From NCBI GenBank assembly GCA_910592345.1, contig CAJVPI010000167.1:1-47020 (forward strand): a stretch of 47,020 nt of DNA, given 5' to 3'. This document shows, in pieces, positions 5,816 through 9,617 of this stretch. A program made the position numbers and the translations under genes. The notes under the pieces are model-generated. The model did no database searches and was not told the DNA's origin. It saw nothing but the letters and a program-made list of their open reading frames with translations. The DNA comes from Paraglomus brasilianum (lineage: Eukaryota). Each line of letters begins with the position of its first letter. The first letter of the stretch is position 1.

Positions 5816-8800
5816 TCAAACGTTTGTATCCTTCTCACCAACACCCTTCATAGCCTTTTCATCTTTTACGACATCGTCTACGTATTCCGTTAAAAAGAAT
5901 TCTACTCCAAGCAGTCTTTGTTCCACTACCGCAAGTTTCTCGTCAGTTGAAAGATATTTTGGTAATACAGAGCCTGAGAATGGAATATTCAGACGTAGGC
6001 TAGAGCCACTATCCATGATTTGGCATTTTCCGAAACTGGGGGAAAAGGCATAGTAATCGTTCGCAGCTTTTTCCACGTACTTGGACGAGCGACGCAAGCT
6101 AAGTTCGGTGCACTTATAAACTGACTTGATATGGCCTCGATCAACAGCTTTTCCATAATAATTCATGGCAGTGGCTTCGTTTGCTTCAACGCAAAATCCC
6201 TCTTCGTAATACAGTCCTATATAGTGAAAGGCCTCAGCATTGCCAGATTCGGCCAGCTTGGTGAATTTAGCAAAGGCCTCTTCGTATCTTCCAGCTCTAT
6301 GCAATTGCTTAATTTCTTCTATGTCTGGTACGCCTTCACCCAAACATGGCAGCAGCTCAGATGCCGAGTTTTCGCGAGGTGATTCAGTTGACGGGTGTTC
6401 GGTTGGGGAGTTTAACCCACGCTCATTAGACAATTTCAACAGCTTCTCGTATACTTCATCAGCTTCTGGACGCTTGTCCGGTTCTTGACTCCACGCCTCT
6501 TTCATAATTTTCTCGTATTCCTCTATGATCTCAATCTTTTCAGTGCTTTCTGGACGGCCACCGTTCAAAATGAGCTGTACGATATCCTTGTTCGATTTAT
6601 CCTTCATCGGTTTTTTTTGATATGCGATTTCCCATAGAAGTATCCCAAAACTGTACAAACCGTGATTGTTAGTTTAACACGAATTTTATAAAACTTTTGC
6701 ATTCTGTTGATGTTACCTGTATATATCACCGGGGGCCCTATATGGCTGTTCGATGTCAGCGATCTTTTCTGGTGGAAAATATCTGAGATATGAATTTAGC
6801 AGAGGGGCGATGGGGAACAAATAATTAATATTAACACGTAAGTTCCACTAAATCAATACAAATTCTTATTACACTATATATTTAGGCCTCCGATTCTTCG
6901 GCGAAGCTATTTTAAATCTGCTCAGCAGAAACCCAGAAAGTTTTGGACATAATCTGTCATCGAGTAGAATGTTATGACTTCTCAAGTCATGATGGAGTAC
7001 TCCTCGATCGTGACAAAAGACAAGTCCATTGGCAATTCCAGTGGCTATTTTAAGTTTTATGGACCAATCCAAGTTTGCGGGAGCGTTTTTAAGATAGTCC
7101 TTGAGATTGCCATTTTCACACCATTGAGTAATCATATATAGTGAACCCCTATTTTGAAGCGTGCCTATACTGAGAATTATCGAAATTTCATTAGACATTA
7201 TGAATATGAGCTCAAACCGGTGTACAAAAACGTTAAAATAAAACAAAACTTACAATTTTAACACATTTTCGCAATCGTCCATCAATTTCAAAATTCCAAG
7301 CATCAAATTGATATTATCTTTTTCGGTCGCTTTAACCTGGCCCAAAAATTTCTGCGCCACTTGTTGCTGTCGATGATATAACTTTCTTACTATTTTTCCA
7401 TTTATAACCGGTTCTTCTCTACTAAAATCGGATATATTCTTTATTGGTATCTCAATACTACGTGTTACGGATGCTATGGTATCCCGCATATTTTCGGGCC
7501 GAACGCCAGGTCCTCGCGATTTACTCGGATCTGGTATGGATGCCATCGTATTTTGTAATTCGTCTATTTTCACCAGTTTTTCGAGACGGACGACGTATTC
7601 TTGTAATTCGCAAATGCCTAATGCATATTTATGGAGGCGGATGACGGATTCTTGTAATTCATAACTATCTGATGATTCATCTCTCCGCGACTCGAGCGTT
7701 TGTTCAACAAGCTTGGTCATCATACGTCCATATCCTCTACCTTGAAGCACAAGCAGATGCTGCTGGATGTGAATTAATTTGCTTGATACAATTTGTAGGG
7801 CTTTCCAATCCTATGGACAAAATCTTTATTTTAGTACTTATCACAATCCACAAAAACATAAACATTGAGTCCCGAAAGGACACTTACGTCTCGACCTGAT
7901 GTATAATATCTGGGAAAATCAAGAGCTGACTCACTCTTTCTGATCGTTTTCACAATCTCAGTCAGAGTCGGAATGTAGAAATCTTTCAAAAAAGCCTCAA
8001 GTGACTTGTTGTTGCTGTATTCCTCTTTATCTAATGATCCTAGAAAAGCCATGTTGGATAAAACCATGTTGTCAATAGTTTTGCATATCGCCTTGTTGTA
8101 ATGGGCCTCCTGCATCACATCGAAAATCTGTCCCGCTACGTTGGCGACCTCCTCAATGAAGGGGACATGATGGGCAACTAGAAGAAGACTCGTTTCCACA
8201 GTCTCAAAGCTTCTGTTTAACATATTGTATTGTGCAACAGTATTTACTTTGTCGGCTGCTTCAACTACCTTTCGTTCATCTTTTTCTACTCCAATTCCAT
8301 GTTGACAACCAAGCCTAACACGATTCCCTGACAACGCCCAGTTGACATGAAGATCTTCAACCTTTTCACTTAAATACGTATCAAATAAATATTTTTTAGC
8401 ACAGTCAGCATATTAACGAGACACGTTATATAGGAGAACTTACGGAAATTCATGCCATTCAATTTCGAGAGAAAATCCATAAATGCTGGTAGAATATAGC
8501 GTTGTATCCACATCGCATCTTTCCCCTCGGTTGTAGACTTCCCCATGAACTTTATATGCATTGCTCAATAGCGGTTGAGAGAACCCGACTTGACAAAAAT
8601 CAGACCGACAGTCTATCGGTGATTTTCCAATCATGAGTATTTCTGTTTCATCACTGAATAACTTTTCGATGTTGGCAATTAATGATTCATCTAAAAATTT
8701 ATAAGTTGGAACAAAGTCGGCTCTTTCAATTACACTCCATTGGTTAGATACTCTCGGACTATATTTTAACCATGCGCTGATTCCCCTATTAGCGTTCAAA

Positions 8801-9617
8801 TATTTATTAGATTTTTGCTAAAGAACATAATTCTAAATCGTGCGAATTCCTTACCCGGCTTTTACTACGCAACCGTCAGCTGAAAATAAGAAATTTTCCT
8901 CAAAAAACGGAAGTATCTCATTTGACCATTCATCGTAGATTTCGTTGAATAGAATATTTTCACCATCTTTGAAAATAAACTCTAAAATTTAACACTTTTT
9001 GGGACGCTGTTGGTTTGCAGGTTAATTAAAAATTTGTCTAAGCCCTTACCGCCCATCCATTCTGTTTGACGTAATTCAACATCCTTGGGATGATGGTCTT
9101 GTTTAGGTTCAAATTGAATAAAGCGTTCTAACCTGCTGCCCACTTTAAATTTGCAATTCAACCAATATCCGTATTCAGAGAATACATCGTCCAATGCTCT
9201 ACGTGGTGTCTCATGTTCAATCGCTTTCTTTATTGCTTCAACAAATTCATCGGTTGGTTTGATATCATCACGTGTAAAATTGATATTCCATAGTTCTTTG
9301 TCTATTCGGAAGATAATCGCCTTATCGGGCGTCTTTTCATAAAGAGGATTGTTTTCTTTAAAACGCTCAAGTGCTTTCGGGGGATTAAAGAGGGTGCCCT
9401 CTTTATCAAGTGCAAGGTTATTTTCGTATATAATGGTATCTTGTATTCTGTGAGTCTTTATAAGCTGTACAGAGGGTCTTGCCTTTTGTGATTCCTCGAT
9501 GGACCAATTCGCTTGAACTGCACACTTACTGGCAAGACGCACACTAACACCAATTTGATCAAACAGTAAACCGTGGCATAGCCTGAAATCCTCGATTATG
9601 TTATTTGGATCAGCCAT
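5816..9617 (-). CDS. MACPF-like + degenerate Sel1 + MLKL-like four-helix bundle + pseudokinase + Sel1 fusion protein, ~1090 aa. Exons 9617-9050, 8981-8855, 8785-8444, 8368-7888, 7810-7254, 7169-6873, 6782-6717, 6650-5816
   Basis: Seven GT-AG introns with matching phases give 3273 nt in one frame; the donor at 6872 is weak. MACPF-like motifs: KPTDEFVEAIKKAI..ALDDVFSEYGYWLNCKFKVGS and WLKY..QWSVIERADFVPTYKFL. MLKL-N-like: VPFIEEVANVAGQIFDVMQEAHYNKAICKTI. Kinase: VAQK, ITQWCENGNL, HHDLRSHNILL, KLSGFLLSR, YFPPE, DIYSFGILLWE. Sel1: AEAFHYIGLYYEEGFCVEANEATAMNYYGKAVDRG. Confidence 0.85.

What the first reader, a model, noticed from the sequence alone, without database searches (positions are those of the whole stretch)
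5816..9617. Single polypeptide joining two different pore-forming death modules: MACPF-like domain plus MLKL-like 4HB-pseudokinase, with Sel1 repeats
Seen: six apparently separate ORFs plus two small exons missing from the ORF track splice in phase into one ~1090-aa frame ordered MACPF-like, eroded Sel1, helical domain, kinase-like, Sel1. Established: MACPF domains form beta-barrel pores, and animal MLKL kills by membrane permeabilisation via an N-terminal four-helix bundle controlled by a pseudokinase. Inference: this is an intracellular fungal immune or incompatibility executioner with a dual-effector design, or one module acts as decoy/regulator of the other. A 4HB normally sits at the N-terminus, so the MACPF cap may need to be cleaved off at the Sel1 linker. 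I do not know of this architecture being described.
Basis: partly seen in the sequence, partly recalled or inferred. Interest (0 to 1): 0.88.

Follow-up and report, generated by a model that had tools for sequence, protein, structure and literature searches.

The report
Perforin-fold head grafted onto fungal MLKL
In a root-symbiotic fungus, a gene with a perforin-like head has been joined to a gene resembling the animal cell-death protein MLKL, and the same join arose separately in another family of these fungi; the predicted protein likely uses the MLKL-like dead kinase as a switch for the perforin-like head, not two killing modules at once, but neither its RNA nor its activity has been tested.

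Summary
Observation confirmed. Eight minus-strand exons give one open 1090-aa frame. The MACPF-to-MLKL join lies inside exon 4, not at the 8369-8443 intron. The head has a pleurotolysin-B-like MACPF fold (paralogue model, Z 15.7) plus an unnoticed lectin-like beta domain. The helical domain is MLKL_N-like only indirectly, and the kinase has DFG replaced by GFL. A tandem paralogue keeps the join. A metagenome contig shows the likely parent, MACPF-beta-intact Sel1 array. Paraglomus occultum has the stand-alone MLKL-like partner. Gigaspora margarita and Dentiscutata heterogama carry the same domain order, and both domain trees reject a single origin (AU p about 1e-5). The dual-killer reading is doubtful. 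The MACPF lacks two hallmark glycines and has acidic, proline-containing hairpin regions. The bundle is capped by about 398 residues, and its hydrophobic N-terminal hairpin is weakest in the four fused copies. Most likely this is an effector swap within shuffling immune-like families. Neutral shuffling is a close rival (dN/dS 0.87 against the paralogue). No RNA evidence was obtained.

The parts
9050..9617 (-). Exon 1, aa 1-189: start codon, N-terminal part of the MACPF-like domain, degenerate signature YG-x-W-x7-GS at 9173-9135
   Evidence: (PF22693 E 6e-5)
8855..8981 (-). Exon 2, aa 190-231: TMH2-equivalent helix and HTH site (GG replaced by DG); alternative in-frame acceptor at 8967
8444..8785 (-). 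Exon 3, aa 232-345: end of MACPF core and most of the lectin-like beta domain
8369..8443 (-). Intron 3, 75 nt, GT...AAG; its retention would stop the frame after aa 346; same acceptor in the paralogue and in L001
7888..8368 (-). Exon 4, aa 346-506: last beta strand of the MACPF-linked domain, eroded Sel1 repeat (8313-8221), fusion point about 8226, internal Met396 (8220-8218), start of the MLKL_N-like bundle (match 8187-7927)
7254..7810 (-). Exon 5, aa 507-691: rest of helical region, kinase N-lobe with beta3 Lys660
6873..7169 (-). Exon 6, aa 692-790: catalytic loop HHD (Asp753 kept), DFG site reads GFL (771-773)
6717..6782 (-). Exon 7, aa 791-812: small kinase exon
5816..6650 (-). Exon 8, aa 813-1090: kinase C-lobe, Sel1 region (6331-6053), unmatched tail (6052-5819), stop
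1..1771 (-). Tandem paralogue with the same MACPF-beta-Sel1 remnant-helical join, cut by the window edge; public model P0034 also fuses the two parts

Best explanation
This is a chimeric gene, likely made by recombination between a MACPF-beta-Sel1-array gene and an MLKL-like bundle-pseudokinase-Sel1 gene, whose predicted cytoplasmic product likely works as a single-output immune-type switch in which the MACPF head has replaced the four-helix bundle as the N-terminal output. Shown from sequence: the frame, the domain order, both parent types, the join inside exon 4, and an independent origin of the same order in Gigasporaceae. Inferred: Sel1 repeats and the DFG-less pseudokinase sense a ligand or phosphorylation and change shape. 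The capped bundle then acts as a brace. The MACPF head, perhaps targeted by the lectin-like domain, assembles on a membrane as a signalling oligomer or an atypical pore. No step of this mechanism was tested.
For: Parent 1: locus L001 has the same exons and intron-3 acceptor, followed by intact Sel1 repeats. Its alignment to the gene stops just before Met396. Parent 2: P0001, 652 aa, is 71% identical to aa 397-1025 and has no MACPF. This MACPF head is found N-terminal to other modules: HMG-like (P0005), LRR (P0015, P0017), Sel1 (L001). Recurrence: 2 of 10 kinase hits, P0042 and P0043, carry MACPF-like plus beta plus bundle plus pseudokinase. A single origin is rejected on the kinase tree (AU p 1.5e-5) and on the MACPF tree (3.1e-5). 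Peak hydrophobicity of the bundle's N-terminal hairpin is 0.86-1.36 in 4 fused copies and 1.40-2.24 in 8 others. The frame is kept through 6 of 6 exon indels. dN/dS against L001 is 0.61 over 168 codons. The Trp after the HTH site, which PMC5483515 links to pore-forming MACPFs, is kept in this gene and in 5 of 6 close homologues.
Against: No transcript evidence. dN/dS against the paralogue is 0.87 overall and 1.04 over the MACPF part (482 codons), which also fits relaxed selection. The signature's second Gly and the HTH GG are lost. The TMH2-equivalent segment is 33% charged with 3 Pro and 16% small polar residues, against 20%, 0 and 48% in PlyB (counted by eye), so the head may not form any pore. 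The four fused copies are only two independent events, so the hairpin trend is weak, and it is slight here (1.16 against 1.52 in the sister P0001). Pfam does not detect MACPF_1 in P0042 or P0043 at E up to 5; that call rests on phmmer within 46 sequences (E about 1e-13) and on the tree. Their DNA was not seen.
Confidence: 0.4

Rival explanations
1. Neutral by-product: a young chimera thrown up by rampant shuffling among multi-copy MACPF, Sel1 and kinase families, intact but with little or no selected function.
For: dN/dS 0.87 between the tandem copies. Sel1 linker is eroding by deletions. The C-terminal tail is replaced by unmatched sequence. Relatives are mosaic: L001 is 99% identical in exon 1 but 66% in exon 2. 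The head has many different partners. No fused relative was found in P. occultum, though those searches are weak tests.
Against: All 6 exon indels keep the frame. Two copies retain the join. The same order is kept in two Gigasporaceae genera at 74-83% identity in all five segments.
Confidence: 0.3
2. One reading: both the MACPF barrel and the MLKL-like bundle permeabilise membranes, the bundle after cleavage in the Sel1 remnant.
For: Both folds are present. The TMH2-equivalent length is kept in one alignment (63 residues against 64 in PlyB). The hairpin here is still moderately hydrophobic. Cleavage-activated MLKL exists in a sea cucumber (PMC11932488, abstract).
Against: Lost glycines and atypical hairpin chemistry. 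Capped bundle with reduced hydrophobicity, strongly so in the Gigasporaceae fusions (11-12 acidic residues in 40). The linker is a recombination scar and differs between copies.
Confidence: 0.12
3. MLKL stays the only killer. The MACPF-lectin head is a non-pore targeting or clustering sensor (or a decoy) that oligomerises or restrains it.
For: Degenerate MACPF motifs are subfamily-wide. Non-pore MACPFs exist (PMC5483515, section 2). A beta-sandwich C-terminal to MACPF usually binds membranes (same section), and this one resembles tail-fibre and H-type lectin domains (Z 5.7-8.8).
Against: The bundle's first helix is buried 398 residues inside the chain, and its hairpin erodes in fusions.
Confidence: 0.12
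4. Two transcription units or isoforms: a MACPF-only product (intron 3 retained or spliced to 8328, stop follows) and an MLKL-like product from internal Met396.
For: Intron 3 ends in a weak AAG, and the first YAG (8328) gives a stop after 4 codons. The donor holds an in-frame stop. Met396 sits where stand-alone P0001 starts, within about 10 residues.
Against: The AAG acceptor is conserved in three copies. The 20 codons after it complete the beta domain as in 5 of 5 homologues. Three downstream acceptors (8315, 8213, 8210) also keep the fused frame. The public model of the paralogue is fused.
Confidence: 0.06

Closest known systems
Pleurotolysin B (PDB 4OEJ), fungal MACPF
   Same: MACPF fold: Foldseek E 2.7e-12, VIA Z 15.7, rmsd 4.3 over 231 residues; profile match E 2.4e-12; beta-rich domain follows.
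   Different: No signal peptide. Signature and HTH glycines lost, hairpin regions acidic with prolines. Fused to an MLKL-like module. No aegerolysin partner was noticed among the window's long ORFs (not searched for).
Glomeromycotina MLKL-family proteins with Sel1 repeats (TCDB 1.A.105 homologues; PMC8778642, passages), e.g. P0001, P0041
   Same: Helical bundle, HHD and DFG-less pseudokinase, Sel1 in the same order; 71% identity to P0001.
   Different: The bundle is preceded by 398 residues of MACPF, beta domain and Sel1 remnant; the C-terminal tail is replaced.
Animal MLKL (PDB 4BTF, 6VBZ)
   Same: Family profile's best PDB hit is mouse MLKL, E 8e-4. Rat pseudokinase ties for top at Z 14.8, and 4BTF aligns over model residues 29-500 at Z 13.2, rmsd 16.8. 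Beta3 Lys kept, DFG Asp lost.
   Different: Bundle not N-terminal, about 44-residue insertion in it, catalytic-loop Asp kept, Sel1 repeats added; no RIPK3-like activator identified.
Pfam PF22693 fungal MACPF-like domain
   Same: Paralogue P0034 scores 33.2 bits, above the 27.5 cut-off.
   Different: Belongs to a subgroup with G-x for GG in the signature; MACPF-first fusion to an MLKL-like module is not described in the papers I could search.
Gigaspora margarita KAF0542494.1 (P0042) and Dentiscutata heterogama CAG8482224.1 (P0043)
   Same: MACPF-like, beta, MLKL_N-like, pseudokinase in the same order.
   Different: Independent origin, longer beta region, no Sel1, hairpin more eroded; annotated only as kinase-like or by locus tag.

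Membership tests
MACPF/CDC superfamily (fold) | Bent four-stranded sheet with two flanking hairpin regions | tested here: met
   Paralogue P0034 model, pLDDT 81; PlyB Z 15.7, perforin Z 10.9. Tested on the paralogue, not on this gene's spliced product.
Pore-forming MACPF | Signature Y/F-G-T/S-H-x7-G-G (PMC5483515) | tested here: not met
   Reads Y-G-Y-W-x7-G-S; second Gly replaced across the subgroup.
Pore-forming MACPF | GG-xn-W motif at the HTH | tested here: inconclusive
   By the profile alignment GG is replaced by DG and the Trp is kept. An alternative register puts the motif at the end of exon 1, which would make TMH2 short (strand at 179-184).
Pore-forming MACPF | Two amphipathic membrane-spanning hairpins | tested here: inconclusive
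   Lengths 41 and 63 aa, 32-33% charged, 3-4 Pro, beta moment 0.46-0.49, against 0.78 in the canonical neighbour gene.
Pore-forming MACPF | Oligomeric pore on membranes | not testable with these tools
   Needs liposome or cell assays.
MLKL-like proteins | MLKL_N four-helix bundle | tested here: inconclusive
   Pfam PF22215 E 0.016, below cut-off. Relatives' profile 31 bits, hhalign 96% over 83 columns. Atlas features 0.94, MLKL_N in 36% of that cluster. AF2 model of this region in P0001 under pLDDT 50. Homology likely, bundle fold not directly shown.
MLKL-like proteins | Bundle at the free N-terminus | tested here: not met
   Begins at about aa 399 of 1090.
MLKL-like proteins | TKL-type pseudokinase lacking DFG | tested here: met
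   VAQK, HHD, GFL; same loss in the 9 family members printed (this gene included); PF07714 hits. Inactivity itself not assayed.
MLKL-like proteins | Membrane permeabilisation by the bundle | not testable with these tools
   Needs expression assays.
Sel1-like repeat proteins | Tandem 36-aa repeats | tested here: inconclusive
   C-terminal repeat Pfam E 0.009, below cut-off; P0001 E 3e-5. Internal remnant 9.5 bits here, 28.7 in the paralogue, intact in L001.

The most novel reading that the evidence does not exclude
Arbuscular mycorrhizal fungi have at least twice, independently, wired a perforin-fold effector to an MLKL-type pseudokinase switch, giving an intracellular, switch-gated MACPF pore: a necroptosis-style trigger driving a perforin-style executioner in one chain.
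Probability: 0.2. Interest if true: 0.85.

Novelty: new variant of a known kind. Interest (0 to 1): 0.55.

Why it matters
Regulated cell death and non-self defence are almost unstudied in arbuscular mycorrhizal fungi, whose hyphae form one shared cytoplasm. MLKL-like and MACPF-like modules are both present there. A fusion that arose twice gives a testable link between them and a natural set of controls: fused copies, a stand-alone MLKL-like partner and a MACPF-Sel1 parent. If the MACPF head is gated by a pseudokinase it would be a new activation mode for this pore family. If neutral, it is a clean, dated example of how these genomes build new multidomain proteins by recombination in Sel1 arrays.

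Tried and rejected
RNA or read evidence: none obtained, so splicing and expression remain open. No whole genome is held. Two-copy complex prediction of the MACPF-beta head: no answer, score 0.00, controls not folded, alignment not used; not evidence either way. AF2 of P0001: mean pLDDT 51, helical region under 50. Foldseek on it returned only kinases in the rows shown. The Atlas structure search gave no TM above 0.34 by query. Metagenome scan with exon 4: 228 pattern hits, 0 confirmed. My first idea that TMH2 is deleted was dropped as unproven after the PlyB alignment. The N-terminal helices of P0015 as MLKL_N were rejected (hhalign 1.7%). An upstream ubiquitin-like exon as in P0005 and P0006 was not found for this gene; it matches only the neighbour at 10907-11176. 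The tail aa 1013-1090 has no Pfam hit at E up to 5, and the Atlas did not answer for it. A single origin for all fusions was rejected (kinase tree of 10 rows after dropping the plant outgroup P0045; MACPF tree of 19 hand-chosen rows, quick mode). Earlier scan notes: nothing relevant. Kwon et al. 2019 on pseudokinases, which may cover this family, is not held.
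Full report
Gene model. The minus strand carries eight exons (9617-9050, 8981-8855, 8785-8444, 8368-7888, 7810-7254, 7169-6873, 6782-6717, 6650-5816). They splice through seven GT-AG introns of 66-90 nt into 1090 codons without a stop. Five of 7 acceptors are the first YAG at least 40 nt past the donor; intron 3 uses the first AG, an AAG; intron 1 uses a later TAG. 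An in-frame AAG at 8967 would shorten the protein by 5 aa and matches homologues better. Homology supports the joins: junctions 4-7 align without gaps to P0001, and junction 3 to 5 of 5 P. occultum MACPF proteins. No reads were seen, so splicing is inferred. A named record, P0034 of Paraglomus brasilianum on a 47,020-base contig, is the public model of a tandem paralogue at 1771-1, which places the window in that arbuscular mycorrhizal fungus.

The join. The first 20 codons of exon 4 complete the beta domain that follows MACPF in the homologues. The same open frame then runs through a Sel1 remnant into the helical domain, so the fusion is at DNA level inside exon 4. The paralogue (89.5% nt) has the same join with a fuller Sel1 remnant. 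Its 6 exon indels are all multiples of 3 and its 4 intron indels are all 1 nt. Its public model is also fused, through a later acceptor. One of 2 metagenome loci, L001, has the same exons and the same AAG acceptor followed by intact Sel1 repeats, and its alignment to the gene ends just before Met396. P0001 of P. occultum is a stand-alone 652-aa helical-kinase-Sel1 protein, 71% identical to aa 397-1025. Both parent types therefore exist, and recombination in the Sel1 array is the likely origin. L001 and L002 are mosaics: L001 is 99% identical to this gene in exon 1 and 66% in exon 2, and the two are 100% identical to each other from intron 1 to early exon 3. That points to exchange between paralogues, though assembly chimeras cannot be excluded.

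The head. Exon 1 and exon 3 hit PF22693 below cut-off (E 6e-5 and 0.03); P0034 passes it (33.2 bits). An AF2 model of P0034 from a 26-row alignment (pLDDT 81) matches pleurotolysin B best (Foldseek E 2.7e-12; Z 15.7, rmsd 4.3, 231 aligned). The profile finds PlyB at E 2.4e-12. Model residues 276-360 form a separate beta-sandwich like phage tail-fibre and H-type lectin domains (Z 5.7-8.8; a middling range). Pore features are atypical. The signature given in PMC5483515 (section 2 read) ends in GG, but here it ends in GS, as in the whole subgroup. PlyB's conserved HTH GG 296-297 (PMC4318580, passages) aligns to DG. The segment between the two sites is 63 aa, 33% charged, with 3 Pro and 16% small polar residues, against 64 aa, 20%, 0 and 48% in PlyB (counted by eye). 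An alternative register would make TMH2 short instead. The downstream Trp linked to pore-formers is kept. There is no signal peptide or transmembrane stretch (highest 19-residue hydropathy 1.21, N-terminal 0.91).

The MLKL-like half. Pfam MLKL_N hits exon 4 only at E 0.016, but passes cut-off in relatives P0041 and P0044. A profile of 7 relatives' helical domains scores this gene at 31 bits over aa 407-493, and hhalign gives 96% (E-values for 46 sequences). That profile's best PDB hit is mouse MLKL (E 8e-4; 7 of 19 hits are MLKL, the others mostly unrelated helical bundles). The Atlas feature search agrees (0.94), while its structure search and my low-confidence model of P0001 (pLDDT 51) do not show the bundle directly. 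VIA ties rat MLKL pseudokinase for first (Z 14.8) and aligns full-length mouse MLKL over model residues 29-500. The kinase keeps Lys660 and Asp753 but reads GFL for DFG; that animal MLKL has GFE there is recalled, not from a call. MLKL-family homologues with Sel1 repeats in Glomeromycotina are already noted in PMC8778642 (passages).

Recurrence. Two of 10 kinase hits, P0042 (Gigaspora margarita) and P0043 (Dentiscutata heterogama), also carry a MACPF-like core, beta domain, MLKL_N-like domain and pseudokinase in this order, 74-83% identical to each other in all five segments. Pfam misses their MACPF part, and I did not see their DNA. In both trees the fused copies group with unfused relatives of their own lineage. 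Forcing them together is rejected: AU p 1.5e-5 on the kinase tree of 10 rows and 3.1e-5 on the MACPF tree of 19 rows. The same head also joins HMG-like, LRR, Sel1 and kinase modules among the 27 proteins scanned, so some recurrence is expected from shuffling alone; I could not count the expectation.

Mechanism. The presumed membrane-inserting N-terminal hairpin of the bundle has peak hydropathy 0.86, 0.90, 1.16 and 1.36 in the four fused copies and 1.40-2.24 in eight others. These are only two independent events, and the drop in this gene is small. With the bundle capped by 398 residues, this favours a swap of output module over two parallel killers. I put 0.40 on a pseudokinase-Sel1 switch controlling the MACPF head, 0.30 on a neutral chimera (dN/dS 0.87 against the paralogue; 0.61 against L001), 0.12 on the dual effector, 0.12 on MLKL killing with MACPF as sensor, and 0.06 on separate products. 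An immune or incompatibility role follows only from what MLKL, HeLo and MACPF families do elsewhere (PMC10197012, PMC12881547, bioRxiv 10.1101/2022.03.16.484565, passages); nothing here tests it.

Literature. Full-text searches found no paper on this fusion: MACPF+Rhizophagus+Sel1+kinase 0 papers; MACPF+arbuscular mycorrhizal 11 and MACPF+Rhizophagus 4, none on fungal MACPF of these fungi by listing; MLKL+arbuscular mycorrhizal+Sel1 1 paper, with no mention of MACPF; pseudokinase+Rhizophagus irregularis+TKL 0; broader searches, listings only. PMC11932488 was seen as abstract, PMC11476962 and PMC10234402 as passages. Subscription papers are mostly missing, one likely relevant pseudokinase survey is not held, and I opened no supplements; domain tables in supplements of AM-fungal genome papers could list this architecture.

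Verdict. A real, twice-evolved and apparently undescribed combination of two known modules: a new variant of a known kind. Its function is untested and the two-pore reading is unlikely. Interest 0.55.

Noticed in passing
window 10904-12902 (+): A separate gene head-to-head with the finding: ubiquitin-like N-terminal module as in P0005/P0006 (label inferred), a canonical MACPF with both GG motifs (PF01823 and PF22693 above cut-off) and a DUF7431-like region. A better pore candidate than the finding and a possible partner.
   Followed up: partly
window 9821-10203: Perfect 24-nt terminal inverted repeats 335 nt apart, MITE-like, about 200 nt upstream of the start codon.
   Followed up: no
window 1920-2137: Tandem 38/39-nt repeat upstream of the paralogue.
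   Followed up: no
window 43197-44162 (-): Single-ORF gene with 7 Sel1 repeats (PF08238, 270 bits) whose DNA resembles the Sel1 remnant of the finding.
   Followed up: partly
L001:1-1490 and L002:1-1130: Mosaic relatives: blocks of 96-100% identity alternate with 66-89% among this gene, its paralogue, L001 and L002; gene conversion or assembly chimeras.
   Followed up: partly
window 5819-6052 (-): C-terminal 78 aa replace the end of the stand-alone homologue and match nothing tested; possibly a second captured piece.
   Followed up: partly
window 3470-5300 (+): Fragmented ORFs between the two copies, including a short CxxC...CxxC motif near 4700-4790; looks like a decayed repeat or gene.
   Followed up: no
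window 19282-41408: Ordinary housekeeping neighbourhood read by eye from ORF translations (velvet-like, TAF2-like, mitochondrial L28-like, Sec7-like 2064-aa ORF, ATP synthase beta); labels recalled, not from a family scan.
   Followed up: no
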